Part shown: one piece after another, positions 3,067 through 36,900 of the stretch
How positions within the stretch are numbered: position 1 is the stretch's first letter
Layout: each line of letters starts with the position of its first letter
The notes under the pieces: model-generated
Database searches by the model: none
What the model saw: the letters and a program-made list of their open reading frames with translations, nothing else
Told to the model about the DNA's origin: nothing
Position numbers and translations under genes: made by a program
Source: a virus
IMG/VR virus record: IMGVR_UViG_3300045988_137242
DNA: 64,000 nucleotides
Direction: 5' to 3' (one strand)

Positions 3067-3068
3067 AC

Positions 3069-3449: not shown

Positions 3450-3811
3450 TTCTTATGATTACTATACTTATCCTTATCTTCATCATAAGGACATTTAAAC
3501 ATCAAAGGACAAATTCCACAAGGTGTAATCTGTCTTTCCTGACAATTATTTCTTAAATTATAGCCCCTTCGCTTTATAAACTGTACGTTCTTTAATTTCT
3601 TGAAAATTATATTCTTTTCATCTGAGCGTCTTTCTCTATTGCAATATCCATAAATATGCTTACTGTTTTCACAATAAAAACCATTAAAGATACAGCCTTT
3701 GCAACGATGATTCATCATATTATGATCTGTAACCTCTTGAACTTCTATCAAAAGGAGGCCATCTTTACCTTTTGGAATAATGAATCTATCGCCAACTTTA
3801 AACTCTTTCAT
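3446..3811 (-). CDS. Cys-rich hypothetical protein (121 aa)
   Basis: CKGCIFNGFYCENSKHIYGYC and CGICPLMFKC clusters. Overlaps its neighbours by 4 and 14 nt. Confidence 0.5.
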   Translation of the reverse strand: MKEFKVGDRFIIPKGKDGLLLIEVQEVTDHNMMNHRCKGCIFNGFYCENSKHIYGYCNRERRSDEKNIIFKKLKNVQFIKRRGYNLRNNCQERQITPCGICPLMFKCPYDEDKDKYSNHKK

Positions 3812-9581: not shown

Positions 9582-10532
9582 TCAATCCAATTTAAACGGG
9601 TTCTCCTGCGGTGCTTCTTCGGCAACAGGGACAGACTCGGTGGTGTCGGTTGGCTGCTGCATCTCGCCAGTCTGGGAGTCAACCACGATAACCTCTTTAG
9701 GCTGAGCAAACTCCTCGTCACGAGTAGCCGAGGAATCCTGCATCTCGTCGTCGCCCATTGCGGAAATCATCTCGATGGAGAGATAGCCATACTTGGAAAG
9801 GAGTCGGCGAAGAACCGTCTTGGTTCCCATAGAGATGAAATCGCCTTCCCATCCTACCTTTCCTGTAGAGCCGTTGACGGCTTGCGAGTTTGCGAGGTCG
9901 CATAGGTCGTCAACCGTAGGCAGCGGATTGTCGGGAGTAGCCTTGCGTTTGAAGGACGGAGAGAATTTGAGAGCATAAGCAGCCATATCCTGCAGTGACA
10001 TATAGAGCGTCTTGGTGAATCCGTTGGTTGTCTCGAAGTGTGCGAAGAAGCCCTCAATCTTGTCGCTAATCTTGTCGCCTGACAAGTCAATCATGCCGGA
10101 AAGCTTGTCTTTGCTGACCAGTTCGCCCTCATATACGACATCAGCATTGATGTTGCGATACTGCCCGGTGCGCATAGCCATCTGGATGTAACCACGGTAG
10201 CCGATAGTGAGAGTAGGAGTAGGCACCTTACGGCGGCTGACCTTATCCCAGTTGTTGAAAACCACTATGTAGGCATAACCGAGCTGCTTGTTGAGCGGTA
10301 GTTTGAGCGTTGCCGCCTTGATAGCCTCCTGAATAACCTTGTTAGGGTCGCAAGCCTGCAGCTGCGTATCGTTGGAGAAAATCTCGATAAGAGACGTGGC
10401 GAAGGTGCCGGAGTTCTTGCCGAGGACATTCTTCAGTTGTGTCTGTACGTAGTTGCCGTTCATCTTGCTGTTGAAAGTGATGATGCTCTGCTGAGCAGGC
10501 GTGAGTTTGTTGGTCTTTGCTATTTCAGACAT
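9582..10532 (-). CDS. recT: RecT-family single-strand annealing protein
   Basis: AIKAATLKLPLNKQLGYAYIVVF ... IGYRGYIQMAMRTGQY matches the recalled RecT core pattern. Confidence 0.7.
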   Translation of the reverse strand: MSEIAKTNKLTPAQQSIITFNSKMNGNYVQTQLKNVLGKNSGTFATSLIEIFSNDTQLQACDPNKVIQEAIKAATLKLPLNKQLGYAYIVVFNNWDKVSRRKVPTPTLTIGYRGYIQMAMRTGQYRNINADVVYEGELVSKDKLSGMIDLSGDKISDKIEGFFAHFETTNGFTKTLYMSLQDMAAYALKFSPSFKRKATPDNPLPTVDDLCDLANSQAVNGSTGKVGWEGDFISMGTKTVLRRLLSKYGYLSIEMISAMGDDEMQDSSATRDEEFAQPKEVIVVDSQTGEMQQPTDTTESVPVAEEAPQENPFKLD

Positions 10533-18174: not shown

Positions 18175-18552
18175 TTTGTGTTACACCTGTGTTATCATTA
18201 TCTTTGTAGGCGAAGAATAAGTTAATGGCAGTCAGAGAGATAGGTGAAATGTCTGATAATCCCAACGGAATCACAAAAATGTAAAAATTTACGCTTAAAA
18301 AAAGACATTTTATCCTTTGCTGAACGGCTGTAATTGCTTATAAATCAAGCTTTTACAGCCGTTCTTGCGTTTTTCGGGGGCTATATTTACGTGTTGACGA
18401 ACGTTCGTATACGTGTATACAATTTTGGATGCCGTAAAACCTTGGAAATCAGTACTATAGGCTTTTCTTCTACAAAAAGGTAGATTATTGTGTGTTACAT
18501 TTGTGTTACCCGTGATATGAGTTGTGATACCAAAAATCGCAATTTGTGTTAC
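18175..18552 (+). promoter_or_regulatory. candidate attP: two clusters of TGTGTTAC direct repeats flanking a 12-bp inverted-repeat core
   Basis: TGTGTTAC or one-mismatch variants occur at 18177, 18188, 18491, 18502, 18523 and 18545, all in the same orientation. Between the clusters lies GAACGGCTGTAA-n20-TTACAGCCGTTC at 18322-18365. Confidence 0.45.
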
Positions 18553-18567
18553 CAAAAAAGGAAGAAA

Positions 18568-19704
18568 ATGAAAGATGTAAATTTAAGTATTATTCACAAC
18601 AGAACTAAGCGAGGAACGCCTAAAAAGGCGGTTTCGGTGGAATTTCGCTTCACTTTGAATCGTGAACGGAAGTATGTCTCTACAGGCATTAAAGTTTGTG
18701 TCGGGCAGTTTTCTGACAAGCGTTGTGTTATCATCCGGCATCCCGAAGCGGACGAACTTAACAGGAAATTGGATATTATGTACCGAAGGATGCTTGAGGT
18801 GGTGCATAAGATGAACGAGGAAAAGGTGACGGACTTGTCTCGTCTGTCTGACTTCCTGCGTGCTGACGAGGGTGAGAGAATGTCGTTTGCGGAGTATTGC
18901 GAGAAGAGGAAGGAGGAGCGCAACGTGTGCGAGAATACGAGGAAGAGGTATGCGGTGTTTATCCGCTTCTTGAAGTCGTGGGGTAAGATTCATACGTTTG
19001 CGGATTGTAATGTGGCTAAGGTTAGGGCGATGGATGAATATCTGCACAAGATGGGGTTGTCGCAAGGTACGGTGTACAATTATCACAAATATCTAAAGCT
19101 CTTTATACATGATGCCGTTATTGACGGATATATTACGGAGAATCCTTATACTCGTCTGCCGTTCACTATTGCCAGGGGTGAGAAGCAGTATGTGGACTGC
19201 ATCAACGAGGAACAGTTTGACGCAATTAAAGGATTGCGCATCAAGACTGTACACATAAGGAAAGCGAGGGACTTGTTTTTGTTTCAATGTTATACAGGCT
19301 TGGCTTACTCGGACCTCATGTCGTTTGACTATGACAACTGCGAGGATATTGGTGGCAAGTTGTTCTATCATGCCAAGAGGACGAAGACGGACACGGATTT
19401 TGTTTTTCAATTGCTTCCTCCTGCGGTGGCTTTGTTGGAGAAGTATGACTATCTGTTGCCGAAGATGAGCAATCAGAAGTATAATGATTATCTGAAGGTG
19501 GTTGGCGGTTTGGTCGGTGTGTCTAATCTGCACAGCCACATGGGTAGGGCTACGGCTGCTACATTGTTTTTGTCGAAAGGCATGCCTATAAACATTGTGG
19601 CGAGGGTTCTTGGGCATACTACGCTGAAGCAGACTACGAGGTATGCGAGGACGCTGAATAAGGATGTGATGGGGGCTTTCGACAAGTTGGAAGGTAAGAT
19701 GTAG
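18568..19704 (+). CDS. int: tyrosine recombinase / phage integrase
   Basis: The C-terminal catalytic region HSHMGRATAATLFL...ARVLGHTTLKQTTRYAR contains HxxR, LGH and the Tyr. The N-terminal region is arm-binding-like. The start is trimmed to MKDVNLS. Confidence 0.85.
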   Translation: MKDVNLSIIHNRTKRGTPKKAVSVEFRFTLNRERKYVSTGIKVCVGQFSDKRCVIIRHPEADELNRKLDIMYRRMLEVVHKMNEEKVTDLSRLSDFLRADEGERMSFAEYCEKRKEERNVCENTRKRYAVFIRFLKSWGKIHTFADCNVAKVRAMDEYLHKMGLSQGTVYNYHKYLKLFIHDAVIDGYITENPYTRLPFTIARGEKQYVDCINEEQFDAIKGLRIKTVHIRKARDLFLFQCYTGLAYSDLMSFDYDNCEDIGGKLFYHAKRTKTDTDFVFQLLPPAVALLEKYDYLLPKMSNQKYNDYLKVVGGLVGVSNLHSHMGRATAATLFLSKGMPINIVARVLGHTTLKQTTRYARTLNKDVMGAFDKLEGKM

Positions 19705-19756: not shown

Positions 19757-20155
19757 TTAGATGTTGTCTCGTTCCCTTTTCTCACGGATGGCTTGGCGGA
19801 TAAACTCGTTGCTCTTGCCTATCATGCTTTGCAGGAACTCGTACATTTCGTCATCGGCACGGAAGAATACAAGGTTTGTGAGTGCTTTCGGTCCGATGGG
19901 CTTTCGTCCGCTTCCCTTTCTGCGTCCTCCCCAATTAGGGTGAATGTTCAGTTTCTTGGGGTTGCCCTTGCGTGTGAGCTGCATCTTCATCTTCAGCTTG
20001 TCTTTAGAGTAGACTTCGGCTGTGATGGCATCGGGCGTGGAGCGCAGGCATGAAGCGACGATAGCTTCAAGATTCTTGGCATTTGAGTATACCACTTCTG
20101 TTTCGTCCACTATCAACAGGTCATCATAGAGGACTACTCTCGCTTTGTTGCTCAT
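19757..20155 (-). CDS. hypothetical DNA-binding protein (possible RHH-type regulator or excision factor)
   Basis: A GGRRKGSGRKP basic segment is followed by VFFRADDEMYEFLQSMIGKSNEFIRQAIREK, which is ribbon-helix-helix-like. Convergent with int. Confidence 0.4.
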   Translation of the reverse strand: MSNKARVVLYDDLLIVDETEVVYSNAKNLEAIVASCLRSTPDAITAEVYSKDKLKMKMQLTRKGNPKKLNIHPNWGGRRKGSGRKPIGPKALTNLVFFRADDEMYEFLQSMIGKSNEFIRQAIREKRERDNI

Positions 20156-20156
20156 C

Positions 20157-20225
20157 TTATCCTAATATTGCTATAATGATAGTGATGAAGAACACTATCA
20201 AGATAAACCATTCCTTTTTGCTCAT
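20157..20225 (-). CDS. possible 22-aa membrane peptide
   Basis: MSKKEWFILIVFFITIIIAILG. Its ATG overlaps the upstream stop (ATGA), and its stop lies 1 nt from the next start. Confidence 0.3.
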   Translation of the reverse strand: MSKKEWFILIVFFITIIIAILG

Positions 20226-20485
20226 CGTATACCGTCTGTTGGTTCTATTGTCTTTATTTCTTCTATTCCTTCGTCCTCGGTGAAGAATCTTGTCTTGTGC
20301 TCGTCTGCGTATGCGACTGCGACAACTTCTTCTTTGCTGTCCTTGATTACGCACAAGTCTCCTCTTAGTATTCCTTGTCTGTCAAGGTAGTTTATAGCTG
20401 CGCTCTTTATCTCCAATGGGTTCATCTTCTTTGTTATCGTCTCTCCGCTCTCGGGAAAGACGAAATAGAATATTTGCTTTTTCAT
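20222..20485 (-). CDS. hypothetical protein (87 aa)
   Basis: Track ORF. 4-nt overlap with the upstream gene. Confidence 0.5.
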   Translation of the reverse strand: MKKQIFYFVFPESGETITKKMNPLEIKSAAINYLDRQGILRGDLCVIKDSKEEVVAVAYADEHKTRFFTEDEGIEEIKTIEPTDGIR

Positions 20486-20871
20486 GCTGTTTTCTCCTCT
20501 TTTGTTTTGTTGTAAAATATTAATCCGAATCCTCTGTGTGTGACTTCTATTTCCGCATAGGTGTTTTCATCGAAGTCTCCTGTTTGCTGCTGCTTGATGT
20601 CGAAGACATCTGTCTGTAGCAGGTCTTCAAGCATTTCGTTGTTTATGCTTGTTGCCGTTCCTGTTTCGAGTGTGCAGGGGAAAAGGCGGTCTATGCGGAC
20701 AAAGTATTTGTGGAACGTGACCTGTACAGGATGCACGATACCGCAATATCCGCAATATCTTTTCAGAAAGCCGTCTCTTGTGGTGTTGACGGAATATCCG
20801 TGCTTGAATAGACGAGAGAGAACGGCTTTCTTTATTCTTCTGTCTATCTCTATCGGTTTGACGTGTATCAT
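20482..20871 (-). CDS. hypothetical protein (129 aa)
   Basis: Track ORF. 1-nt overlap with the PcfJ-like gene. Confidence 0.5.
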   Translation of the reverse strand: MIHVKPIEIDRRIKKAVLSRLFKHGYSVNTTRDGFLKRYCGYCGIVHPVQVTFHKYFVRIDRLFPCTLETGTATSINNEMLEDLLQTDVFDIKQQQTGDFDENTYAEIEVTHRGFGLIFYNKTKEEKTA

Positions 20872-22037
20872 TATGCTGCTTTCCTTTCTTTCTTTGTAAT
20901 TTTCTTTATCATGTTCATGTTCTCTGTTACGAGTTTCACTATCTGCGTGTGATATTTGCTCGGTTGGTTGTTCACTCCTCTACTCTGGACAATAGTAAAG
21001 CGTTTTAGGTTTACTTCTATCGTCTCGGTGTGCTTGCCGTTCACCTGTGCGGAGAGTATGAGTGTGTCTGCCTTCTTGTAATATCCCATGCCGAAGACGC
21101 AATGATGCATCAGTTCTCCTTCCTGCTTGAACTCCTTTACGCTCTTAAGAGGTCGGATAATGATTGTATCATCCGCAATGACGAGGTTGAGGAATTTCTT
21201 TATAAACTCCTTGTAGTGCTTCTGTGCTTCCTTGTCGGACATGGCTGCAAGTTCTCTTCTCCGCTTCTCCTCTGCAAGTTCTATCCTGTTCAGTCTGCGT
21301 GAATACAGATTATGTGCTGTCTGTAGGTTCTGCGGACATACATAGAATGGGTTGTGCGTGTCGTAATGGAGTTGCTTTGCCATGGTAACAACGTCTCTCC
21401 AAAGATTGTAGTCAAGTTCCTCTGTAAGGTAGCCGTGCTTCCATGCAAGTTTGACAATATCCTGCTCGTTCTGCAAGCGGTTAAGCAAGATAAGTTCGGC
21501 AATGCGTGGTTTCTGCTTGATGATAGTCTCAAGAAACGGAAATGTGTTTACGTTCAAATCGTCCGTGAGCCATACATAATGCTCGCCAATCAGACAGAAT
21601 TGGTTTTCTGTGTAATTGCAGATTGTGAGCTGCGCTTTCTTGCTACGGATGAAGAGTTTGGTGTATGATATGTCGGTTAGACGGTTGTAACCATAATTCT
21701 TCTTGTTTGTGCGTATTTCCAACGGACTGTCTTTAATGAATGTGTCGAAATAATTTTGTCCCATGGAAAAACGCTGTTTGGCTCTTACTGCGTTGCCGTG
21801 TTTGCTCATCCATACCTGCATGAACTCTTCGCATACGTTGTCTATCTTCTTGTGCTTGATGAAAGAGAAGTAGCGGAGTACGGTAAACTCCTGCTTCTGC
21901 TCCAACACGGCATAATAGCGTTTGCGGTTGTTCTGCTCTGTATGTTGGCAGAATTTGTCAATGATATATTTCGGCAATGGGCGAAGTGTCTTTGACAACT
22001 CGTTTGCCTGTCTTTGGATTTGGGTCTTTGGTTTCAT
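20871..22037 (-). CDS. PcfJ-like protein
   Basis: The C-terminal EGELMHHCVFGMGYYKKADTLILSAQVNGKHTETIEV...IVQSRG matches the recalled PcfJ-like domain signature. Confidence 0.55.
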   Translation of the reverse strand: MKPKTQIQRQANELSKTLRPLPKYIIDKFCQHTEQNNRKRYYAVLEQKQEFTVLRYFSFIKHKKIDNVCEEFMQVWMSKHGNAVRAKQRFSMGQNYFDTFIKDSPLEIRTNKKNYGYNRLTDISYTKLFIRSKKAQLTICNYTENQFCLIGEHYVWLTDDLNVNTFPFLETIIKQKPRIAELILLNRLQNEQDIVKLAWKHGYLTEELDYNLWRDVVTMAKQLHYDTHNPFYVCPQNLQTAHNLYSRRLNRIELAEEKRRRELAAMSDKEAQKHYKEFIKKFLNLVIADDTIIIRPLKSVKEFKQEGELMHHCVFGMGYYKKADTLILSAQVNGKHTETIEVNLKRFTIVQSRGVNNQPSKYHTQIVKLVTENMNMIKKITKKERKAA

Positions 22038-22303
22038 AATTTATATCTCCCTTGTTTTATCGCTTTCCCGAACATTGTCATCTGTGTTCGTCCGAAACTT
22101 TGTGTATCACTATAATAAGGCGTATAAGTCAAGCGTATATCTTCATCTTTATAGCTTTTCGCATAAATGAAATGGCTGCTTAATTTAACACCTTTCTTCA
22201 CGTAATGAATAAATGCCTTCTTCGCTTCTTTAAGCGTGCTATACTTTATCTCCTGTGAAATTACAGGATTAAAAATGCTAATAACATAATAATCTATCTT
22301 CAT
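22034..22303 (-). CDS. hypothetical protein (89 aa)
   Basis: Track ORF. 4-nt overlap. Confidence 0.5.
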   Translation of the reverse strand: MKIDYYVISIFNPVISQEIKYSTLKEAKKAFIHYVKKGVKLSSHFIYAKSYKDEDIRLTYTPYYSDTQSFGRTQMTMFGKAIKQGRYKL

Positions 22304-22315
22304 ATCATAATAATC

Positions 22316-22705
22316 TTAGAATAAACTTAGTTCTTGGCATTTCGGGTTCTTGCTCTCTTTCTTTTTTATAGTTACCTTGCGCTTTAGCTTTATTTCCTTT
22401 GCTACGGTGGTGGTCCGCTCCTCCTGCTTAGGCTGTTCGGTGGAAACATTGCTCGGTAGCTGCTCTACCTTGACGCTGTCCTCTTGATAGTAGTGGATTA
22501 TCTGCCCTGTCATGGATTCGTCGCTCCGTCCTACGCAACGGCATCTGCCTTTTCCGTTCTTGATTTCCTTGTATGCTTCACCTTGCAGATATTTGGCACA
22601 TTCATCCACTGACTTGTTGGGCTTGGATAATAGAGCCTTGAAGTCTGCATCCTTTGCGCTCTGCTGCTTTATCAGCATTTCAATGTATTTCTTTAGCTCG
22701 TCCAT
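22316..22705 (-). CDS. PcfK-like protein
   Basis: DADFKALLSKPNKSVDECAKYLQGEAY ... IIHYYQEDSVKV, followed by a basic tail. This matches the recalled PcfK-like pattern, and the gene is adjacent to the PcfJ-like gene, as I recall for conjugative elements. Confidence 0.55.
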   Translation of the reverse strand: MDELKKYIEMLIKQQSAKDADFKALLSKPNKSVDECAKYLQGEAYKEIKNGKGRCRCVGRSDESMTGQIIHYYQEDSVKVEQLPSNVSTEQPKQEERTTTVAKEIKLKRKVTIKKKESKNPKCQELSLF

Positions 22706-22711
22706 AATAAG

Positions 22712-23068
22712 TTAGGCTTTAAAGTTGTAAATCTTTTTAATTCTCTCTTTCTCTGCAATGAGTTTCGCTTTCAGAGTGTCCCATTTGCTTACTATAACTT
22801 CAAGTTCCGTGAAGGGCTGCTCATGTGTTCTCACAAGTGAGGTCAACGACTTTCGGCTGTTGTTGTTGTAGAAACAACTTTTCCCTCGGAGCGTGAAATC
22901 TCCTTGCGTCCTCGTCAGTTGTACCTTGCCGTTTTCTATTGCAAGTAGCGTTCTTGCACTCGGATATAAGATAATAACTATCTCCTTGCAGTTGTCGGAA
23001 ATCCATTGTTGGATGTCGTTCCAACAACGGATTAGCTGCATATTTTTGTTTACATCGGGTTTCTTCAT
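22712..23068 (-). CDS. hypothetical protein (118 aa)
   Basis: Track ORF. Confidence 0.5.
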   Translation of the reverse strand: MKKPDVNKNMQLIRCWNDIQQWISDNCKEIVIILYPSARTLLAIENGKVQLTRTQGDFTLRGKSCFYNNNSRKSLTSLVRTHEQPFTELEVIVSKWDTLKAKLIAEKERIKKIYNFKA

Positions 23069-23352
23069 TTGCTCTTTATCTTTAGTTCCTTACAGACTGT
23101 CTCCTTAATATCCTTGCTCATGTATTGGCGGTAGCACTTACCGCTTTTTGACTTGCGCCAAATATAGCATGCGCCTGTATATTTGTTTATCACTATCGGA
23201 TAGGCTTTGCCTTTTGACTCGAAATTGTATGGGGTAACTAACGTATCTCGTTCGGTCTTCCGTTGGCGAGTAAAGGTGTTGCCTTTTCTTATAGTTTGCC
23301 CTACTGCGCACATGGCGCAAAACAGGGCTGCGGTGATGATTAGATATTTCAT
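23065..23352 (-). CDS. secreted small protein (95 aa)
   Basis: N-terminal signal-like MKYLIITAALFCAMCAVGQ. Confidence 0.5.
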   Translation of the reverse strand: MKYLIITAALFCAMCAVGQTIRKGNTFTRQRKTERDTLVTPYNFESKGKAYPIVINKYTGACYIWRKSKSGKCYRQYMSKDIKETVCKELKIKSK

Positions 23353-23359
23353 AATTCTT

Positions 23360-23821
23360 TTAGTTTATATTGTCGCAAATTGCAATACGCAACCCTGCAC
23401 TGATGAGTTTTGGTAGGTAGGTGTCAAGTGCAGAGTAAGGGAATCCTGCCAAGCGCAATGGCTGTCCGTCTTCTTCTTTCATCGTGTTGTATCTTGTCAG
23501 CGTAATGTTGAGAATATCGGCAACGACTTCTGCGTCTTCGCTGTATGCTTCGTAAAAATCCCCTGTGCGGAACAATAGGGTACAGTCGGGGTGTTTCTCT
23601 TTTATGGATGCCCACCTTTCATGCAATGTCCTTTGCTCCTTTGGCTCATACTGTCTCTCTTTTGCCTTAATGTTCTTGCCAATCATGTAGCTAATCTCGC
23701 TCTCCTTGTATTTTAGCGTTTTGAACAGGTAGTCTTCAACTTCTGTTATGCTCCATGTGTCGGGGCAATTACAGATTTTCTCTACCGTGCATGTCTGATA
23801 GTTTAAAATTGCTATATCCAT
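23360..23821 (-). CDS. stand-alone MutS domain I (mismatch-binding domain) protein
   Basis: [42 protein letters not shown]...[27 protein letters not shown] aligns by eye to the E. coli MutS N-terminus, including the GDFYE Phe-x-Glu mismatch motif. None of the other MutS domains is present. Confidence 0.7.
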
Positions 23822-23849
23822 AATCTATATGTTTAAGTTAATAAATAGT

Positions 23850-23894
23850 GCCGTTGGCGGTGTCGCTCCGCTATTGGTTTCTGTCCCCAACGGC
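23850..23894 (-). terminator. intercistronic hairpin
   Basis: GCCGTTGG-n29-CCAACGGC forms an 8-bp stem between two minus-strand genes. A T-rich stretch follows on the minus strand. Confidence 0.35.
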
Positions 23895-23901
23895 TATGGT
23901 T

Positions 23902-24174
23902 TCAAGCGTAAAACAATAGGGTTATAATGTTGTCTGTTGTTACCTGCCTAATCAGCAAGTTCGGGTCAATTGCATTTTTGCGGATGCTTACCGTGTAAGC
24001 TATATCCGTTATCTCTCCCTCCTGCATCTTGATATAGGCTTTCGTCTCTGTCCGATACAAGATTGTGTCTTTGCCGTTTATCTTGCCTGTTAGAGTATTA
24101 ATTAACTCTCTTCCTGTACCCTCGTCAAAGATTCTCTTCAACTCTGTAGGGCTGCTGCATCTGTATGTATTCAT
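23902..24174 (-). CDS. hypothetical protein (90 aa)
   Basis: Track ORF. Confidence 0.5.
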   Translation of the reverse strand: MNTYRCSSPTELKRIFDEGTGRELINTLTGKINGKDTILYRTETKAYIKMQEGEITDIAYTVSIRKNAIDPNLLIRQVTTDNIITLLFYA

Positions 24175-24434
24175 TTTCTGTAAAGTATTATTGATGTTCC
24201 GTCTAAATCTACGTCAAAACCTTGTATTTGGTTTCTTCTCTCTGCAATGGCTCCTGCAACTTCTCTCGCTAAAAAGGTGTAATAAGGTCGGATATATACG
24301 TATTCCTGTCTTATCAGTACTTGCACAGGGCAATTACTGATAGCTCCTGTTAGCTCGTTGCGGTATAAGCCAACATTGTAGATTTTGTTGTCAAATAAGG
24401 CTCTGATTTCTTCGGGGTTGATTACTTTTTCCAT
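24171..24434 (-). CDS. hypothetical protein (87 aa)
   Basis: Track ORF. 4-nt overlap. Confidence 0.5.
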   Translation of the reverse strand: MEKVINPEEIRALFDNKIYNVGLYRNELTGAISNCPVQVLIRQEYVYIRPYYTFLAREVAGAIAERRNQIQGFDVDLDGTSIILYRK

Positions 24435-24453
24435 ATCTGTAGTGTTTTTTTAA

Positions 24454-24768
24454 TTAAGCATGTGTTATAATTTCATTTGCAAGTATATACATTCTGCCTT
24501 TTCCGTATGTCTCAATGAACTCGTCTATAACATCATCAATGCTACAAGAGTCTGTAATTGTATTCCACTCTTTTGTGTGATGAAAAAATGAGCCGTAAGA
24601 GTACCAACATATCTTGTAATTCCATCCGATTGGCATGTAGCCGAACTCGTCAGGATTATACTCGCTACATATATATAGCTTGCAATAATTCCCCTTATGG
24701 GTTCTTATTTCATTTGTCGGTGCTATTGGAATATCCTTTCCATAGCCGTAAGTTATTCGTCCGTTCAT
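24454..24768 (-). CDS. hypothetical protein (104 aa)
   Basis: Track ORF. Confidence 0.5.
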   Translation of the reverse strand: MNGRITYGYGKDIPIAPTNEIRTHKGNYCKLYICSEYNPDEFGYMPIGWNYKICWYSYGSFFHHTKEWNTITDSCSIDDVIDEFIETYGKGRMYILANEIITHA

Positions 24769-24795
24769 TTCTTATCTCCTTTTTTGATTAGGTTT

Positions 24796-24839
24796 GGGGG
24801 CGGCTGCTTGCAGCCGTGGGGGGCGAAGCCCCTTATCCC
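24796..24839 (+). repeat. 44-nt double-hairpin element, copy A
   Basis: GGGGG-CGGCTGcttgCAGCCG-TGG-GGGGCgaaGCCCC-TTATCCC. The architecture is the same as at 27406-27449. Confidence 0.7.
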
Positions 24840-25262
24840 TTAAAATTTTTGCACGGTGTACGTTGTGCTCCCTACGTCTGCAACTATGTAGCCTACGCTT
24901 TGCAGTTAAACTCCGCATATAGAGTAGCCGTCTATCGGATGCTAAGCCGACGTATGATTTTCCGACTTCACTACGCTTTGTCGGTACGGACTGCCCTCCG
25001 CACAGGGTTGTTACGTTTCCTCGGTTTGTGGGGTTGTCTCCCCGATTTCCGCTTTCAGTCGTTTTTTATAAGGTGGTCGGCTCAAAGGTAACTACTAACC
25101 GCAAATCACTTCCACCATCTTAGCTAAGTGTGTAGGTAGGATAGACGTTGCATCTACCCCGAACGGCTTGATACCGTATCTACCTTTATTCCTCCGTGAA
25201 ATGTTTATAATGTCTGCCTACATATATTCCTACAATGTAGGCAATGAGTGATGTTATTGTTA

Positions 25263-25493
25263 TTATTGCCATTTCGTTGTCCTCCCTGCTATTTTAGGGT
25301 ATGTCTTGTCAATCAGTCGGCAAACGTTGTCGCTACCGTCATATCTCTCAAGTGTACCGTCGTCCTCCATATTATATAATAATGTGCGGATGTCCTTCTT
25401 CAGCTGATGATTTTCTTGTGCCAATCTGTTCATGTTCGCACAACTTGCTATCAGCATAGCTATTACTGCTATCAATGTTAGTTTCGTTTTCAT
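25263..25493 (-). CDS. small lipoprotein (76 aa)
   Basis: Signal peptide with lipobox: MKTKLTLIAVIAMLIASC. Confidence 0.55.
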   Translation of the reverse strand: MKTKLTLIAVIAMLIASCANMNRLAQENHQLKKDIRTLLYNMEDDGTLERYDGSDNVCRLIDKTYPKIAGRTTKWQ

Positions 25494-25575
25494 TTTCTTG
25501 TCTCCTGTTTTTGTTAAATATTGTGCCGTGTGTGGGCTTGAACCACATGCGAGCCTTTTCTCTCACGGCTAAGGA

Positions 25576-25902
25576 TTATCTCCTTTTTGCTTGAAAATCC
25601 ATCCACCACATATCCAAATCTTCTTGCACCTCCTCAAATATGGTGTTGACTTTTACGTATTTGCTTTCATTTTTCTTGATGAAAGATTTTGCCATCTTTA
25701 AGCAATAAGTTCCTGCAAAGCTTCCGCCCTCCGTTTGATGATTGCCGTAATAGATTGTGAAGTGGTTGGTGTCTTCTTTTTTATGCCCTTTTCTTTGTCC
25801 TACGGCAAGTATACCGTAAAAGGCATTATGAAAAATGTACTGTTCACCTGTGAATATTACATTTACTTCGCAATTGTTTCGATTTAGTTTTGTTATCTCC
25901 AT
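25576..25902 (-). CDS. hypothetical protein (108 aa)
   Basis: Track ORF. Confidence 0.5.
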   Translation of the reverse strand: MEITKLNRNNCEVNVIFTGEQYIFHNAFYGILAVGQRKGHKKEDTNHFTIYYGNHQTEGGSFAGTYCLKMAKSFIKKNESKYVKVNTIFEEVQEDLDMWWMDFQAKRR

Positions 25903-26518: not shown

Positions 26519-26809
26519 ATGAGAATAAAAGAAGTAATGAAGTCACACGGCATCACTCAAGAAGAACTTGCCGCACGCATGGATATTAATAGAGTGTCGG
26601 TAAATCGTCTGTTGAGTGAAAAAAATGATATGCGTATGTCTACACTTCAAAAATTTGCAGACGCTATTGGTTGTCGTGTGACTGAACTTATAGAAGAAAG
26701 AAGTGAAGAATTCACGGCATTTATCAAGTATAAGGATATACATTATACTGCCGATTCGCTTGCCGAATTAAATAAAATAGTTGAGGAATTAAATATTATT
26801 GCAAAATGA
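26519..26809 (+). CDS. XRE-family HTH transcriptional regulator
   Basis: MRIKEVMKSHGITQEELAARMDINRVSVNRLLSEKNDMRMSTLQKFADAIGCRVTELI is a typical HTH_3 pattern. Confidence 0.75.
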   Translation: MRIKEVMKSHGITQEELAARMDINRVSVNRLLSEKNDMRMSTLQKFADAIGCRVTELIEERSEEFTAFIKYKDIHYTADSLAELNKIVEELNIIAK

Positions 26810-30957: not shown

Positions 30958-33900
30958 ATGGCAATAGATAGAACGAAATTAAAGCAGATACACAATCTGT
31001 TGGCGCAGAACGGTTTTGCGCAGGACTATTCTACGTTTGAGAAGAAGTTTGCTGGTAATGCAAATTACGGCAACCGCAAGAAGGTTTATGACCTTATCAC
31101 TGAGAATGGCGGTGATATAGGCGGTTCGTATGAAGATTTCATGAAAAGGATTCAATCGAAGCCTCAGACTACTTCTCAGAGAGCGATGCAGTTTGGTGGT
31201 AGGCAGTTGCCGAAGCCTAAGCGTGCTCCGAGTAACGCTTCTCCATTCGTGCAGTCGCTGTATGCGAAGGATATGGCGGAGCGAGGTGAGCAGCAGCCTA
31301 CGGACTATGTGAGCAAGAGAGAGGACTACACTTCTCCGAAGGCTGTTCAGAACATGAGCAGGAGAAGTCAGATGGCAGGCAGGAATGCGGCTAAGTCGGC
31401 TGCAAAGGAGATAGACAAGCAGTATATGCAGTCGCAGCCAGTGATGAATACAGGAACTCCGGCAGATGAGTATGTAGGCAAGACAGAGAGACAGTTGGAG
31501 AAGCAGATGAGTGATGCTGCAGACCAATTTGTGAAGAACAATATGAGTAGCTACATTGCAAATGCAGTCTCTGGAGAACAGGATGCAGCCTTGCAGCGAG
31601 CACTCAATGCTACAGACAATGTTCCTTCAATGGCAGGATTGGGAGGAATGGGTCTGATGGTGAAAGGCAAGACTTTCAACGAACAGGTAGACCCGGATTT
31701 GATGATAAAGAATCTTGAAGGGAACTTGGATAAGAACTTGCAGAATATCTTTTCCAATCCGCAGGTTGCACAGAAGATAGAAGCAGATGCAAGAAATCTT
31801 GGTGTTTCAGTAGATACATATATCCAACGTATAGTGCCAAGCTTGCGGAATAGTCTTGCCAATGCTCTTAATGAATCGGAATATCAAAGAGCTTTGCCTA
31901 AGAATATGCTTGACAATGTAGCAAACAGATTTATCAATTCAAATACGTTGGGCAAGATGATTAGGCTTGCCACACAGACAAGGAGCCAGAGAGTCATGAA
32001 CGAACAGGCTATGGCAGCAACGGCAGCAGGCGAGAATCCATATTACAAGAGCGGAGCAATAGAAAATGTTACGGCAGATGTTGGCGGTATGGTGCTTGAT
32101 CCTGTTTTCGGTGGTGCCGCCAAGGGTGGTGCGATGGTAGCAGGCAAGTTGTTAGGCAGTGGAGCGAAAGCTGCAGCAGTAATGGCGAACGGCACGTTGG
32201 CGCAGCGTTTGGGTATGAAGGCTGCGCAGGCGGCGGTAGGTGGCGGAACAACAGGTTTTTTATTTGATGCGACAAATTCCGTTGTTCAGAATTTCTCTAC
32301 TGGTGAAGATACATCTTTGGGTAATACGTTGAAGACAGCAGTAACTGGCGGAGCAAAAGGTGCTGTGAATTTTGGCATTATGGGACTGACTGGAGTTCCT
32401 CTCGGAGAGCTTGGAAGAGGTGTCGGCATAAAGGCTGGCGGTTCATTCTGGGGTAATGTAGGAAGGGCGACAGGAAAGGTGAGCCTTGAAGCAGGCAAGA
32501 CCTATATGGAAGCTATGGGAATGTATCTCGGCGGTTATGCAGTGGGTAAGCTTGAAGGAGCCAAGGATGCCAATGGCAAGCCTATAGAGTTTGACTTGTT
32601 TGACGGAACGTTGGAGAGTCTTCCTACGGCAATCGGTTTCCGTGTTCAGCATGCACTTGGCGGTTTGAAGGGCGGCAGGAAGAATGCTAAGGGTGAAGAT
32701 ATAGGATGGTTGGGTTCTACTGTAGCGAACGTGAAGGAGTTTCTTACTTCCGACAAGGCGAAGACCTCGAACATGCTCATGAGCGAAGACGAGAGACAGC
32801 AGATATTCAATTCCGGGGCGCAGAACGGCGTGATGCGAGACGGAGAGAACATAGTGAGCTATGCGAGGAGGACAAAGAAGAACAAACTCCACTATGATGA
32901 TCCACGGACTTATGACGACCCTACAGGAAAGGAGAGCATAGAGTCAGACGTGGAGATGATGAAGAACACCTACGACCAGATAATGGCAGACCCGAAAGTA
33001 TCTTGGGATGCAAAGGCGAAGTTCTCTGCAATGGTAATGGGTGTGATGCCCGATTCGCGTCCTATGATGGACTATTGCACGTTTACGACAGAGAAGGTAG
33101 GCGGTGACGAGGCAGGAGTGAAGAAGTATATCAACGAGTATTCTGCCGACGGTACGCTGTTGTCGAAGACAAGTTACGACAATGTAGACAAGAGAGAACA
33201 GGCGTTGTATAAGATGGCGATGACAAAGGAAGGTCAGAGGCTTTGGAACGTGATGGGTACGCTTGTGGGCATAGACAAGAACAACTATGACTACCAAAAC
33301 GCTTTCTTTATGGAACGTGTGAAGGATGCGAAGGACGGTGCGGAGATACAGGCGTTTGCTGACGGAATGGGCACGAAGGGTTCGGCGGTGGAACAGGAGT
33401 TCACCAACTGGGTCTTGAACAACGGTTCGGTAATGAAGGCAATTGATGCGTTTGCCCAAGAGAGCGGCATGAAGAAAGAAGATGTTGTGAAGCTGATGAA
33501 CAAAGACCCTTTGCACAGGACGGAGGAAGAGCAGCTGCTGTGCGTGAAGCTCCGCAGGGAGATGGAGAAACAGGCATTCCCTGCCGACAAGGTTCATGAG
33601 GAGCAGAGCAATCTGGAGGGTAAGGACGTAGCGGACGACAATAGCCTTGGTACGGAGGAGCCTAATACAGGAGCCGTGGCAGAGCAGCTTGACAATCTCT
33701 CCAAGGCAGAAGAGGGTGTTGAGGCTCTGATGAGAGATAATGACGTGTTCGGAGACAACTTCAAGAAGATGCAGGAGGAGGGTATGACCAATCCTCAGAT
33801 ATACGACTGGATGATACAGAATGGCGGCATGACTCAGGAGCAGTTGAAGCCTTTTGCCGACTACATCAATGCCAATGCGAGGGTGCAGGGCATGCAGCAG

Positions 33901-36900
33901 CGGACGCAGCAGAAGATGGAGGAGCTTGTTGGCAAGGTGGTCCATGATTGGAGTTATCGAGGCACGATGAATGGTGTGAAGACCGATGGCGAACAGGTGC
34001 TGTTTGTCGAGGACAGGGACGGACGCAGACTGATGGTAGGTTCGGGTGATGTAGCCTTTGATTCCGTGACCGGCAGGGCGAAGGAAGATGTGGGCGATAT
34101 GCTTGTATGTCTTGACCCGGAGACCAAGGAACTGGTGTATATGAAGGCAGAGGATGCCAAGTTTGTCGGTGTTCAGAATCCTGATGAATTTGCCAACGAG
34201 TATCGCCAAAAGTTGCAGGAGATAAACTCTCAGCCTTATAACGAGGCAATGCAGCGACAGGCAGAGCGTGATGCGGCGAAGAATCAGCAGGAAACGAATG
34301 AAGGAGAAACGAAGACGGAAGTGGCGGCACCCGAGACACCGATGCCGAAGGAAGATAATCCTGAATTATATAAGGTGGCAGATTCACTGCAAGGAAAAAT
34401 CGGGCAGTCTTTGTCTAAGGATGAAGCGGATAGTCTTGTGTCTGAAATGGAAAATCGTGCCGAACCTGCAAGAGAATTGGAGTTAACACCAGAGAACTGG
34501 ACTGCCGAATTTGGTGAAGACGGTAAGGTTGCAACCCCACTCGGCGAGGTAAAGATGGGAGAGAACCAATACTTTAAACTTGCCAAGGAGGGAAGAAACG
34601 GAAAACTTGGTTTGATTAAGCCTACATTGGAAGACCCAGATGTAATCATCGAGGATGCAAGTCAAGCTAAAGAAGGTCAAGTAACAGAACGTCATAGTTC
34701 ATACTTGTTTGTAAAAGCATTCACTGGCAAGGATGGAAATCGTGTATATTACTTTACTTCTGTTACGGTTAGCCGTGATGGAAAAGAGGTTGTAGTTTCC
34801 AACCAAGAAAGAAGAGCAAAACGAATTGCTACGGTAATGGAGAGTGGAAAGATTCTATATTTAAAAGGAAATCAGTCTGCATCCGTTGCGCAGAACGAGA
34901 AGCCTGTTTCTCTTGGTGATTCGAACTCCTCTACTACTACAGGCAGTCAAGGAGCCTTGCACGGTATCAATTCACCTGATTTACATGGCAAAGATACGAA
35001 CAATTCTTCAAACGGCAATGGGAATGAAGGAACTTTAACACATTCTGCTGCTTCTTACGAGAAGAATGACATACCTGTAGACAAGGACGGAGAGCCGGCT
35101 TACGAGCAGGTGCCGAAGGAAAGGACAGTAGAGGATTTGTTCGGCAAGCTTGGCGGTGACGGTAATCTTGCACATAGCTTTGCGGAAGCCAAGGTAGCGG
35201 AAGCAGAGAAGGAGCGGAAGGCTTTGTTGAAGAAAGAGCCTAAGATGGGAACCAAGATAAACGAGTATCTGAAGAAGAAGCGTGAGCATGATGAAGCTGT
35301 CAAGGCAGCAGAGGCAAAGGTTGCCTACTGGAATGACGTGAAAGGTGAGATAGAGAAGCTGACACACACCACCCCTGAAGAGCTGAAGGAGCAACAGGCA
35401 GAGCTTGAAGGTACTGCAGCTACGGCAGAGCACAAGGCGTTGTATGGCGAGGGTCAGCCAGCAGACGGCACCGCTCTTGCAGCGAAGTTCGTTGCTGATG
35501 CCAAGATAACGCCAGAGAGTTTCAAGAAAGAGACAGGTTTCGGTACAGCAGAGCAGGCAGGTTTCGTGGGCATGATAGCCAAGGAAGAGAACGGCGGCAA
35601 GTCTATAGAGCGTCTTGCCGAGGACTTGGTGTACTATGACAACACGGAACATAACGGTACGTACTTCCACGGCGACACCAACGAAGCGAGAAACGCCATC
35701 ATCTCAGCCTTGGGTGCAGCGAGAACCCGTAAGGGACTCCGAGAGCTTGCCCAGCCCGACCTTGCGAAGTTTGAGAGTGAGCGAGCACAGGAGCGAGACA
35801 ATGCTTATCATGAGGCTTACGGTATGGATTATGAAGAATATTTGGCATATTCTGAGCAGGAAATGCCTCATATATTAGAAAAAATAAATAACTTTGACGA
35901 GGAAAAGTATCTGCAAGACAAGGCAGAGGAGATTACGAACCAAATAGATAAAGAACATGGAAAAGCAATTGGAAGAGATGAGTCCGCAGGAGAAGAGCCA
36001 GTATATGGTGAAGGCGATAAAGTTCTGCCTGGCACACGGACTGATGAGCGAGGAGGAGGTGAAAGCCCCGAAGAACATGCAGGAAGAACGGAAGCTGAGC
36101 GCAGAAGCGATACTGAAAATGCGGCTCTACCAGAAGAAGCATCCTCAGGAGCCGGAAGAGTAGATGAGCGGCAGAAAGAAGTTGATGAGGCAGTGAAGCA
36201 TGTAGCCACTGAGATAACGAAACAGACAGGTATTGAAGTGGTTACTGACGAGCGTGAGGGTCAGAGTGCTTTGGAGAGAGGTTTGCAGGTAGACAATAGC
36301 GTTAGAGAGCATAGAGCTTCGGCAGGCAGTACGATAGCAGGCATGCAACTGTTGCCAAAAGAACTGCGTATGAACGAGAGTGTGCTTACTGACCAGATAT
36401 TGAACTATCATGGTGACTACATAGGCAAACTTCTTGAAAATGCTCAAGAAGATTCGTCCGTATCATACTTCTCCGCTCATGATGGCAAATGGTACTTCTA
36501 CAGCGTTGATAAAGACAGGAACATAAACATCTTGGATGCCGTAGAAGCATCAAGAGAAAACTTCGATTTATTTAAAGATAAACTGAAAGAATATGGATTT
36601 GACGGAAAATCAACAGCTCTTCGTAATGCTTTGTCGTCGTATGGCTACATCGGACGAACAGACAGCGATTTGCTTAAGTCTTTTCTCGCTGGAGGAACAC
36701 AAAGCCGCAGTAGATTTCGTGATGGAGAGACTTCGGAAGGGAGAAGAGCCGACAGAAATAGAGTGGCTGGAGAAGCTGACGGAACTCAATCTGAAGGCGA
36801 TACGCAAGAAGCGAGGGAAATAAGGCAGTTCCGCACCAAGGATGGTGAGGTGTATGGCTTTACTGTAGACGGCAAGATATATCTTGACACGAAGAAGATG

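What the first reader, a model, noticed from the sequence alone, without database searches (positions are those of the whole stretch)
23360..23821. Stand-alone MutS mismatch-recognition domain (domain I only) encoded by the phage
Seen: residues ~60-150 align by eye with the E. coli MutS N-terminus. The shared blocks are KHPD..LLFR.GDFYE, LAGFPY and YL.KL...G..IAIC, including the Phe-x-Glu mismatch-contact motif. There is no connector, core, clamp or ATPase domain, and a unique ~55-aa N-terminal extension is present.

Established: MutS domain I contacts the mismatch, and host mismatch repair antagonises RecT-type homeologous recombination.

Inference: this could be a decoy or competitor that shields heteroduplex intermediates, or an inhibitor of host MutS. 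It is co-resident with a RecT module.
Basis: partly seen in the sequence, partly recalled or inferred. Interest (0 to 1): 0.65.

Follow-up and report, generated by a model that had tools for sequence, protein, structure and literature searches.

The report
Phage mini-protein with MutS mismatch domain
A temperate gut Bacteroidales phage encodes a 153-residue protein that is just the mismatch-recognition domain of the DNA-repair protein MutS joined to a small unknown domain; such stand-alone domains are a large, already noted but functionally untested family of mobile-element proteins that may blunt host mismatch repair.

Summary
ORF 23360-23821 (minus strand, 153 aa) matches Pfam MutS_I (E 1.4e-23). 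Its AlphaFold model superposes on MutS domain I of solved structures (rmsd 1.5-2.4 A over about 82 residues). The Phe-x-Glu mismatch wedge is intact, and no other MutS domain is in the window.

Two corrections. The domain is trimmed: it lacks the last beta-hairpin of domain I. The N-terminal extension is not unique: it is a confidently folded 57-aa domain shared by a phage subfamily, with no solved-structure match.

The protein is not a one-off. It belongs to a very large mobile-element clade derived from Bacteroidales MutS. That clade includes stand-alone mini-proteins, ArdC-N fusions, tandem arrays in giant polyvalent proteins (Iyer 2017) and the DGR accessory factor Msl (Wu 2018). Phage B124-14 already carries an annotated 81-aa version.

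This phage has no reverse transcriptase or DGR. Linkage to RecT is not conserved in 81 related loci. The gene is under purifying selection (dN/dS about 0.28).

Best reading: a non-enzymatic binder of mispaired or distorted DNA that shields phage DNA intermediates from host MutS. This is plausible but unproven, and the protein's acidity (net charge about -6) weighs against it.

The parts
23360..23821 (-). Complete gene for the 153-aa two-domain protein (stop codon 23360-23362)
   Evidence: ORF list. Pfam MutS_I E 1.4e-23. Exact protein found on 6 metagenome contigs. dN/dS 0.28-0.37 against L015/L016.
23651..23821 (-). N-terminal domain, residues 1-57. Beta-beta-alpha-beta in the isolated-domain model; one further strand in the full-length model. 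No known family; specific to a phage subfamily.
   Evidence: AF2 of residues 1-60 with 28-sequence alignment: pLDDT 94.8, pTM 0.75. No PDB fold match (best E 1.5). No Pfam or PHROG hit. Invariant P20, W23, Y31, L32.
23627..23650 (-). Linker, residues 58-65. It follows an extra strand (residues 54-57) that appears only in the full-length model. Begins with the nearly invariant Y58.
   Evidence: DSSP of the full-length model shows E54-57, absent from the isolated N-domain model. Y58 is at least 90% conserved. pLDDT dips to 71-80 here.
23369..23626 (-). MutS domain I core, residues 66-151 (equivalent to E. coli MutS 13-95). Truncated before the last beta-hairpin.
   Evidence: Pfam profile 4-85 of 113. 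PDB phmmer E 2e-15. Foldseek rmsd 1.5-2.4 A. 53% identical to a canonical Bacteroidota MutS, 37% to E. coli.
23549..23557 (-). Phe89-Tyr90-Glu91, the mismatch wedge motif (E. coli F36-Y37-E38)
   Evidence: Read directly from the sequence (ttcgtaaaa on the plus strand = TTT TAC GAA on the minus strand). Alignment. Conserved F 90%, Y 98%, E 88% in 291 mobile-element domains.
23850..23894 (-). Hairpin (GCCGTTGG ... CCAACGGC) in the 80-nt spacer just upstream of the start codon. Possible regulatory element; role unknown.
   Evidence: RNA fold -20.8 kcal/mol, z -2.6. Nearly identical in L015, L016 and L003, so there is no covariation evidence.
19757..25902 (-). Context only: the same-strand run of small genes that contains the MutS_I gene. 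It is divergent from an HTH_3 gene at 26519-26809 and points toward the integrase. It includes PcfK (22316-22705) and PcfJ (20871-22037). Functional linkage is not shown.
   Evidence: ORFs. Pfam PcfK E 2.4e-10, PcfJ E 5.1e-36. Same gene order in L002 and L003. PcfK/PcfJ linkage is restricted to this phage lineage (3 of 81 loci).

Best explanation
What it is (high confidence): an accessory gene of a temperate Bacteroidales phage of about 75 kb. The protein has no catalytic domain. It joins a small N-terminal domain of unknown family to a trimmed copy of MutS domain I that was captured from a Bacteroidales-type MutS. It belongs to the large mobile-element MutS-I family (stand-alone 'Msl-like' proteins, ArdC-N fusions, polyvalent-protein modules).

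How it most likely works (inferred, moderate confidence): it sits in what looks like an early/accessory operon. It uses the retained Phe-x-Glu wedge to bind mispaired, unpaired or otherwise distorted bases in phage DNA intermediates. These could be heteroduplex from annealing or recombination between diverged sequences, or entering and replicating DNA. By occupying those sites it competes with host MutS. MutS-MutL processing or heteroduplex rejection is then not triggered on phage DNA. The N-terminal domain would supply oligomerisation or a partner contact that compensates for the missing clamp domains.

Shown here: fold, motif retention, truncation, purifying selection, family distribution, operon position, absence of any RT or DGR.
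Inferred: DNA binding by the isolated domain, competition with MutS, and any effect on recombination or mutation rate.
For: - Domain identity and fold.
- Wedge retained: F 90-92% and E 88-89% across 291 mobile domains. In the N-extension subfamily F is 90% and E 100%. Other residues invariant in canonical MutS are relaxed (E. coli positions P12, M13, M14, Q16, T39, R58, Q95-D98). The pattern is selective retention of the base-contacting element.
- Purifying selection: median dN/dS 0.28 over 30 pairs.
- Family scale: 453 clusters at 90% identity and 194 IMG/VR contigs. The best 150 of 9899 representative hits are almost all non-canonical, including 2-6 tandem copies inside proteins of 1.7-2.3 kb.
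- Tandem arrays and ArdC-N (ssDNA-binding) fusions (P0074; L014; 19 of 81 loci) fit a nucleic-acid-binding role, as Iyer et al. proposed (PMC5512222).
- The homologous Msl is a DGR accessory gene (PMC5758913). Host mutS deletion raises Bacteroides DGR retrohoming 5-10 fold (bioRxiv 10.1101/2024.11.15.621889). So mobile elements that make mismatch-dense heteroduplex have a demonstrated MutS problem.
- The phage has a RecT / SbcC-like / MBL recombination module.
Against: - No experiment on any member of the family was found.
- The window protein is acidic: pI 5.0, net charge -6.3; its MutS_I part is -5, against about +0.5 for canonical Bacteroidales domain I.
- It lacks the terminal hairpin. It has Tyr at the position of E. 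coli R58, which is invariant Arg in canonical Bacteroidales MutS. My recollection that both contact the DNA backbone is not verified here.
- In MutS, mismatch affinity depends on the clamp domains and the dimer. An isolated domain may bind weakly (general knowledge).
- There is no conserved linkage to recombinases (0 of 81 loci).
- The inter-domain geometry is uncertain (pTM 0.58).
Confidence: 0.42

Rival explanations
1. Protein mimic or dominant-negative. The domain does not act on DNA. It imitates the host MutS mismatch domain and docks on a host protein (MutS itself, MutL, the beta clamp or another partner), poisoning or redirecting mismatch repair.
For: - Acidic protein, net charge -6.3.
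- Loss of the canonical invariant Arg (R58 position) and of the terminal hairpin.
- The domain stays unusually close to host-type MutS: 54% to Bacteroidales against 37% to E. coli. Mobile copies are on average closer to canonical MutS (63%) than to each other (58.5%).
- The surface helix [13 protein letters not shown] is at least 90% conserved.
Against: - As far as I know, no partner is known to bind MutS domain I specifically. From recollection of Groothuizen et al. 2015, MutL binds the connector and ATPase domains.
- The N-terminal KQ[FY] segment, which overlaps a beta-clamp motif reported for E. coli MutS (recollection), is not kept in this subfamily.
- Tandem arrays and ArdC-N fusions point to DNA binding.
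- Retention of the F-x-E wedge is not explained by mimicry.
Confidence: 0.2
2. General DNA-entry or establishment factor, analogous to ArdC-N. It binds single-stranded or ss/ds-junction regions of the incoming or replicating element and protects them from host nucleases or defence systems. Mismatch repair is not involved.
For: [quoted passage not shown]
- ArdC-like genes lie about 2 kb downstream in 19 of 81 viral loci.
- Neighbours in relatives are typical establishment or counter-defence cargo: PcfK, PcfJ, PcfM, RadC, ParB_N, N6 methylase, MPTase.
- A Tad2-like anti-Thoeris gene lies further along the phage genome, just past the window's left end on related contig L175.
- 66 of 261 relatives share a C-terminal GxHR tail with ArdC-like and giant polyvalent proteins.
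Against: - The window protein lacks the GxHR tail and any ArdC-N fusion.
- It lies in a temperate phage's internal operon, not in a virion-delivered polyprotein.
- Wedge retention suggests recognition of mispaired or flipped bases rather than plain ssDNA.
- The protein is acidic.
Confidence: 0.2
3. Accessory factor of a reverse-transcriptase system: either the DGR factor Msl, or a helper of UG27 RT systems that would bind their bulged hairpin cDNAs.
For: - Msl is the named class of small MutS_I-only proteins.
- In 13 of 81 related viral loci the MutS_I gene lies within about 2-3 kb of RT_UG27 + RTas337 + RTas346. This holds in three different gene orders.
- UG27 systems make 50-100 nt hairpin cDNAs with bulges (bioRxiv 10.64898/2026.09.22.753630).
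Against: - No RT, UG27 accessory protein or TR/VR repeat is in the window.
- None is on record in the roughly 12 kb that closes the genome on related contigs.
- Only 7 of 80 UG27 RT loci carry a MutS_I within 10 kb.
- No DGR-type RT was found in the 81 loci by jackhmmer.
- No TR/VR was found in UG27-linked relatives.
Confidence: 0.05
4. Non-functional relic: a fragment of a host mutS gene picked up by the phage and not yet lost.
For: - It is a truncated piece of a host-type gene.
- Its immediate neighbours have no known function.
Against: - dN/dS is about 0.28.
- The same domain boundaries recur in hundreds of clusters and 194 viral contigs.
- It is fused in frame to a conserved, confidently folded N-terminal domain.
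- The start and reading frame are conserved.
Confidence: 0.02

Closest known systems
Msl (MutS-like) accessory protein of diversity-generating retroelements (Wu et al. 2018, PMC5758913; Bacteroides DGRs in bioRxiv 10.1101/2024.11.15.621889)
   Same: Small (112-283 aa) protein consisting essentially of MutS domain I, encoded by mobile or phage-associated elements including Bacteroides. Function untested. The rationale, protecting mismatch-rich heteroduplex from MutS, is the same.
   Different: Msl is defined by sitting in a DGR cassette with avd, TR and RT. This phage has none of these. The window protein carries an extra N-terminal domain and a trimmed domain I.
MutS-I DNA-binding domain of polyvalent proteins (Iyer, Burroughs, Anand, de Souza, Aravind 2017, PMC5512222)
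   Same: Same mobile-element clade of MutS-I derived from classical MutS, in Bacteroidetes elements. Relatives of the window protein are ArdC-N/MPTase-linked or sit inside proteins of 1-7 kb. The window phage itself encodes a 5196-aa polyvalent protein.
   Different: Here the domain is a free-standing 153-aa protein. It has no ArdC-N, no metallopeptidase and no C-terminal GxHR tail. The phage's polyvalent protein has no MutS-I.
Bacteroides phage B124-14 ORF064c, 'putative mismatch repair protein' (YP_005102529, 81 aa)
   Same: MutS domain I-only mini-protein in an isolated Bacteroides fragilis phage, within the replication/recombination/regulation gene block. 42% identical over the domain.
   Different: It is only the bare domain (81 aa) with no N-terminal domain. 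Its neighbours differ (invertase, nuclease, replication initiator).
Canonical MutS domain I (E. coli MutS residues about 2-115; PDB 1E3M and others)
   Same: Same fold (rmsd 1.5-2.4 A). Same GDFYE wedge motif. 37-40% identity to E. coli, 53-54% to Bacteroidales MutS.
   Different: No connector, core, clamp or ATPase domains, so no ATP-driven sliding clamp and no MutL recruitment. It lacks the last beta-hairpin. The R58-equivalent is Tyr. The domain is acidic.
ArdC-N (PF08401), the ssDNA-binding head of the anti-restriction protein ArdC
   Same: Functional analogue: a non-catalytic DNA-binding module of mobile elements proposed to protect the element's DNA on entry. It is frequently fused or adjacent to MutS-I.
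   Different: Unrelated fold. Not present in this protein or its operon.

Membership tests
MutS domain I (Pfam PF01624) fold | Significant match to the family profile above the curated cut-off | tested here: met
   83.7 bits against a cut-off of 20.6, E 1.4e-23. NCBIfam MutS models match only their first ~87 positions, far below the whole-protein cut-offs.
MutS domain I (Pfam PF01624) fold | Three-dimensional superposition on solved MutS domain I | tested here: met
   Foldseek E 2e-7, probability 1.00, rmsd 1.5-2.4 A over 80-82 columns for E. coli, Taq and other bacterial MutS (entries 5yk4/5x9w). Model pLDDT 88.
MutS domain I (Pfam PF01624) fold | Phe-x-Glu mismatch-contact motif | tested here: met
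   F89-Y90-E91 align with E. coli F36-Y37-E38. Codons at 23549-23557.
MutS domain I (Pfam PF01624) fold | Complete domain, including the C-terminal beta-hairpin that leads to the connector | tested here: not met
   The match ends at profile position 85 of 113 and the protein ends 2 residues later. Some relatives keep KRGISELVTPG, but this subfamily does not.
Canonical MutS mismatch-repair ATPase (MutS1) | Connector, core/lever, clamp and ABC ATPase domains in the same polypeptide | tested here: not met
   The ORF is 153 aa. Only residues 11-97 of an 881-aa Bacteroidota MutS match anywhere in the window.
DGR accessory protein Msl | Small protein made essentially of MutS domain I | tested here: met
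   153 aa, MutS_I the only known domain. The size range in Wu et al. is 112-283 aa.
DGR accessory protein Msl | Located in a DGR cassette with a DGR reverse transcriptase, avd and TR/VR repeats | tested here: not met
   No RT among the RT-sized ORFs. No TR/VR-like repeat of 40 nt or more in the window. No RVT_1 on record in the ~12 kb closing the genome on related contigs. avd was not specifically searched.
Polyvalent-protein MutS-I module (Iyer et al. 2017) | MutS-I domain of mobile-element origin in Bacteroidetes/Firmicutes, distinct from the cellular mutS gene | tested here: met
   Phage context. Nearest relatives are small proteins and polyvalent proteins, not canonical MutS.
Polyvalent-protein MutS-I module (Iyer et al. 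2017) | Embedded in a multidomain polyvalent protein, usually with ArdC-N | tested here: not met
   Stand-alone two-domain protein. No ArdC-N or MPTase. The window's 5196-aa polyvalent protein lacks MutS-I.
UG27 reverse-transcriptase system | RT_UG27 with RTas337 and RTas346 and an ncRNA array next to the gene | tested here: not met
   No homologue of the three proteins in the window (tblastn). Present next to the gene in 13 of 81 related loci, but only 7 of 80 UG27 loci carry MutS_I. The ncRNA array was not searched for.
Mismatch-binding / anti-MMR activity (functional class) | Preferential binding to mismatched DNA and an effect on host mutation or recombination rates | not testable with these tools
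   Needs biochemistry and genetics. No published test of any family member was found.

The most novel reading that the evidence does not exclude
The protein is a trans-acting, phage-encoded antagonist of host mismatch repair: a free mismatch-recognition domain that caps mispairs or jams MutS. It would let the phage's RecT-type recombination accept diverged partners and so drive phage mosaicism. If so, the thousands of mobile-element MutS-I proteins, including DGR Msl, would be a general anti-MMR guild. No protein of this kind from a phage turned up in the literature searches made here.
Probability: 0.25. Interest if true: 0.8.

Novelty: new variant of a known kind. Interest (0 to 1): 0.45.

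Why it matters
Mismatch repair is the main barrier to recombination between diverged DNA. It also restricts DGR retrohoming in Bacteroides 5-10 fold. A small, portable protein that neutralises MutS recognition would explain how gut phages and conjugative elements tolerate mismatch-rich intermediates. It would give a mechanism for the untested DGR factor Msl. It could also be a practical tool, as a transient MMR blocker for recombineering in Bacteroidales.

The family is very large. The best 150 hits in a library clustered at 50% identity are almost all mobile-element forms. It is concentrated in human and animal gut viromes. As far as the searches here show, no member has been tested experimentally.

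If the protein instead proves to be a generic DNA-entry protector, it is an ordinary member of the polyvalent-protein toolkit.

Tried and rejected
1. DGR membership. Repeat search over the whole window, Pfam on all RT-sized ORFs and a walk off both window ends found no RT or TR/VR.

2. UG27 RT linkage. Context clustering showed MutS_I next to RT_UG27/RTas337/RTas346 in 13 of 81 loci. This looked promising, because UG27 makes bulged hairpin cDNAs. The reciprocal scan found MutS_I in only 7 of 80 UG27 loci, and the window has no UG27 genes. I treat it as a facultative neighbour.

3. RecT linkage. No RecT, SbcC-like or MBL homologue within 10 kb in 81 loci.

4. N-terminal domain identity. Sequence search found only frameshifted copies of the same gene. 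The PDB fold search had no hit better than E 1.5. BFVD gave weak 62-71 aa phage proteins (some crAss-like) that may be stand-alone copies. Their alignment range was not shown, so this stays a lead.

5. Host assignment by genome scan. The best 80 of more than 593 loci were mostly the canonical mutS of Bacteroidales species. No close prophage copy was found in species representatives.

6. Sigma-70 promoter and terminator scan. Not above shuffles, and not appropriate for Bacteroidetes promoters.

7. megablast of 16 kb around the gene against GenBank phages: no match.

8. Literature on PcfK/PcfJ function and on phage inhibitors of MutS: nothing relevant.

9. Systematic charge shift in the mobile domain: none at family level (means about +0.5 to +0.7, as in canonical MutS). 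Only the window's own clade is strongly acidic.

Full report
1. THE OBSERVATION

- Pfam assigns residues 67-151 to MutS_I (PF01624): E 1.4e-23, 83.7 bits against a gathering score of 20.6.
- phmmer against PDB sequences aligns residues 67-152 to E. coli MutS 14-96 (E 2e-15).
- F89-Y90-E91 correspond to E. coli F36-Y37-E38. Their codons are at 23549-23557 (read).
- An AlphaFold2 model built on a 35-sequence alignment has pLDDT 88. Its C-terminal part superposes on MutS domain I of E. coli, Thermus and other bacterial MutS (entries 5yk4/5x9w) with rmsd 1.5-2.4 A over about 82 columns (Foldseek E 2e-7).
- Nothing else of MutS is present. A full-length 881-aa Bacteroidota MutS matches the window only with its residues 11-97. 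A six-frame scan with a profile of the MutS_I core built here (below, the family domain profile) finds one copy.

Two corrections:
- The domain is incomplete. The match stops at profile position 85 of 113 and the protein ends two residues later. The last beta-hairpin, which leads into the connector in MutS, is missing.
- The N-terminal 55-60 residues are not a unique extension. They are conserved in about 28 protein clusters. Modelled alone they fold with pLDDT 94.8 as a small beta-beta-alpha-beta unit. That unit has no significant match among solved structures (best E 1.5) and none in Pfam or PHROGs.

2. THE GENOME

The window is phage.
- Recombination and early genes: RecT (9582-10532), an SbcC-like ATPase (10568-12553), an MBL-fold hydrolase, an Ant anti-repressor and a dUTPase-like gene.
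- Structural genes: a P22-type portal (59345-61360) and tail-fibre-like proteins.
- A Bacteroidetes-type tyrosine integrase at 18490-19704.
- A 5196-aa polyvalent protein at 30958-46548, with PBECR2, ResIII, MuF_C and LPD38 domains.

On a related contig the same gene block ends at the integrase and is followed by host genes (dihydroorotate dehydrogenase, DNA polymerase III delta; L003). The phage is therefore temperate, and the window shows the excised or circular arrangement. Walking off both window ends on related contigs closes a genome of roughly 75 kb.

The MutS_I gene sits in a run of small minus-strand genes (about 25.9 to 19.8 kb). This run is divergent from an HTH_3 gene and points toward the integrase. 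PcfK and PcfJ homologues lie downstream.

3. THE FAMILY

The protein is one of a very large set.
- The 90%-clustered database returns 453 clusters. The best 120 are all 90-265 aa with MutS_I as the only Pfam domain, except one ArdC-N + MutS_I fusion.
- Reading every representative of a 1.84-billion-protein library gives 9899 hits. The top 150 are almost entirely non-canonical: small proteins, and polyvalent proteins of 1.1-7.4 kb with internal MutS_I, several with 2-6 tandem copies.
- IMG/VR holds at least 194 viral contigs with a relative.
- GenBank already has an 81-aa version annotated 'putative mismatch repair protein' in the isolated Bacteroides fragilis phage B124-14.
- BFVD has a 153-aa, 49%-identical 'DNA mismatch repair protein' from a gut siphovirus.

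Origin:
- The window's domain is 53-54% identical to canonical Bacteroidales MutS domain I and 37% to E. coli.
- Mobile copies are on average closer to canonical Bacteroidales MutS (63%) than to each other (58.5%). This fits capture from that lineage followed by radiation.

The gene is maintained by selection: median dN/dS 0.28 over 30 pairs, and 0.28-0.37 for the window against its closest relatives.

4. PRIOR ART

Two papers already describe MutS-I outside MutS.
- Iyer et al. 2017 list it as a DNA-binding domain of polyvalent proteins of Bacteroidetes and Firmicutes elements. About 80% of those copies co-occur with ArdC-N. The authors derive it from classical MutS and propose that it binds the incoming element's DNA (PMC5512222).
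- Wu et al. 2018 define MSL (MutS-like), small proteins of 112-283 aa, as a DGR accessory gene class (PMC5758913).
- A 2024 preprint finds Msl in three Bacteroides DGRs. It shows that deleting host mutS raises retrohoming 5-10 fold in a DGR that lacks Msl.

No experiment on any MutS-I mini-protein was found.

5. TESTING THE OBVIOUS ASSIGNMENTS

DGR. No RT among RT-sized ORFs, no TR/VR-like repeats, and no RVT_1 in the rest of the genome on related contigs. This is not a DGR Msl.

RecT.
- The module is in the same genome but 13 kb away, on the far side of the integrase from the gene.
- None of 81 related viral loci has a RecT, SbcC-like or MBL homologue within 10 kb.

Unbiased clustering of the genes in those 81 loci gave two recurrent neighbours.
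- ArdC-like proteins (ArdC-N + MPTase), in 19 loci.
- A reverse transcriptase with two partners, in 13 loci. PADLOC identifies them as RT_UG27, RTas337 and RTas346. The adjacency holds in three different gene orders.
- That is intriguing, because a September 2026 preprint shows that UG27 systems make 50-100 nt hairpin cDNAs with bulges.
- However, only 7 of 80 UG27 RT loci contain a MutS_I within 10 kb, and this window has no UG27 genes. I therefore treat it as a facultative neighbour.

Overall, the company the domain keeps is that of establishment and counter-defence cargo, not recombinases. The neighbours seen are ArdC, PcfK/J/M, RadC, ParB_N, methylase fragments and MPTase, with a Tad2-like gene elsewhere in this phage's genome.

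6. WHAT THE SEQUENCE SAYS ABOUT MECHANISM

Across 291 mobile-element domains the wedge is kept: F 90%, Y 98%, E 88%. In the N-extension subfamily F is 90% and E 100%.

Several positions that are invariant in 34 canonical Bacteroidales MutS are relaxed or replaced:
- the N-terminal P-M-M-x-Q;
- T39;
- the Arg at E. coli position 58 (Tyr in the window);
- Q95 to D98 and everything after.

Selective retention of the base-contacting element argues that recognition of a mispaired or flipped base is still the job. Tandem arrays and ArdC-N fusions argue the same way, through avidity and guilt by association.

Evidence against:
- The window protein is acidic (pI 5.0, net charge -6.3; its MutS_I part is -5). 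The family average is near neutral, like canonical domain I.
- It lacks the terminal hairpin.
- From general knowledge, MutS needs its clamp domains and its dimer for tight mismatch binding.

In the full-length model an extra strand (residues 54-57, next to the nearly invariant Y58) appears. It is absent when the N-domain is modelled alone. It may pack onto the MutS_I sheet in place of the lost hairpin. I could not inspect coordinates, so this is inference.

7. VERDICT

Identity is settled. This is a free-standing, trimmed MutS domain I with a subfamily-specific N-terminal domain. It is a new architectural variant of a known mobile-element family.

Mechanism is not settled. My estimates:
- About 0.4: a non-enzymatic binder of mispaired or distorted DNA that shields phage intermediates from host MutS.
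- 0.2: a protein-mimic version.
- 0.2: an MMR-independent DNA-entry protector.
- 0.05: an RT-accessory role.
- 0.02: a relic.

The finding is real and the family is large and untested. But the domain's presence outside MutS and the anti-MMR rationale are already in the literature, so the interest is moderate.

Noticed in passing
window 30958-46548 (+): A single 5196-aa ORF. On the matching contig it carries PBECR2, ResIII/DEAD helicase, MuF_C and LPD38 hits, so it is a phage 'polyvalent protein' of the Iyer et al. type, probably packaged in the head. It has no MutS-I domain.
   Followed up: partly
window 18490-19704 (+); L003 13960-20089: Bacteroidetes-type tyrosine integrase (Arm-DNA-bind_5, Phage_int_SAM_5, Phage_integrase). 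In L003 it is the last phage gene before host genes (DHO_dh, DNA pol III delta). The window is therefore the excised or circular form, with attP presumably in 17.8-18.5 kb. attP was not mapped.
   Followed up: partly
relatives P0027, P0028, P0030, P0046, P0063, P0074, P0127, P0133 etc.; ArdC-like protein L043 12671-13897: 66 of 261 mobile MutS-I proteins, from 124 aa to 6019 aa, end in the same C-terminal tail. It is an acidic/polar linker followed by [GS]-x-H-R or R-R (for example ...QSRGFHR). ArdC-like neighbours end similarly (...RSAFRR). It may be a shared delivery, packaging or cleavage signal. The window protein lacks it.
   Followed up: partly
P0125 (2323 aa), P0131 (1756 aa), P0133 (2087 aa), P0121, P0126, P0130: MutS-I occurs in tandem arrays: up to 6 matched stretches in one polyvalent protein, and 2 copies in proteins of only 170-333 aa.
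   Followed up: no
L017 10001-13554; L019; L031; L051; L053 5729-10700: In related gut phages the MutS_I gene lies beside a complete UG27 reverse-transcriptase system (RT_UG27, RTas337, RTas346), in three different gene orders. Neither UG27 paper mentions MutS. The reciprocal frequency is low (7 of 80).
   Followed up: yes
L175 4791-5315 (related contig, about 0.8 kb beyond the window's left end): A Tad2-like (PF11195, anti-Thoeris) gene lies on the same strand as this phage's long run of small minus-strand genes, which continues past the window's left end. A YopX gene follows it.
   Followed up: no
window 412-1079 and 2733-3469: Three co-linear direct repeats (188, 79 and 67 nt; 78-89% identity; spacing about 2.3-2.4 kb). 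They indicate a duplicated pair of small minus-strand genes with their upstream regions.
   Followed up: no
window 47353-47429 and 50080-50156: A 77-nt inverted repeat (73% complementary) brackets a 2.65-kb segment that holds several small plus-strand ORFs. It could be an invertible or recombination-prone segment.
   Followed up: no
window 23065-23352 (-): The gene immediately downstream of the MutS_I gene encodes a 95-aa basic protein with a hydrophobic, signal-peptide-like N-terminus (MKYLIITAALFCAMCAVGQT). This is unexpected in an operon of DNA-related genes. No family hit.
   Followed up: no
window 23850-23894 (-): A hairpin (8-bp GC-rich stem, about 29-nt loop; -20.8 kcal/mol, z -2.6) in the 80-nt spacer upstream of the MutS_I start. 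It is identical in close relatives, so there is no covariation evidence.
   Followed up: partly
L017 5333-5376, 8392-8435, 15390-15433 (also L019, L031): A repeated motif of about 44 nt (ATTTTCTAACCTTTAAATTT...GAATATG) sits directly upstream of several gene starts in the UG27-bearing phage group. It is possibly a phage-specific promoter or translation-initiation element.
   Followed up: no
window 54062-54265 and 54592-54792: Two co-linear direct repeats (45 and 65 nt, 74-87% identity, spacing about 530 nt) link the adjacent minus-strand genes 53042-54313 and 54337-54840. This suggests a duplicated domain in neighbouring structural genes.
   Followed up: no
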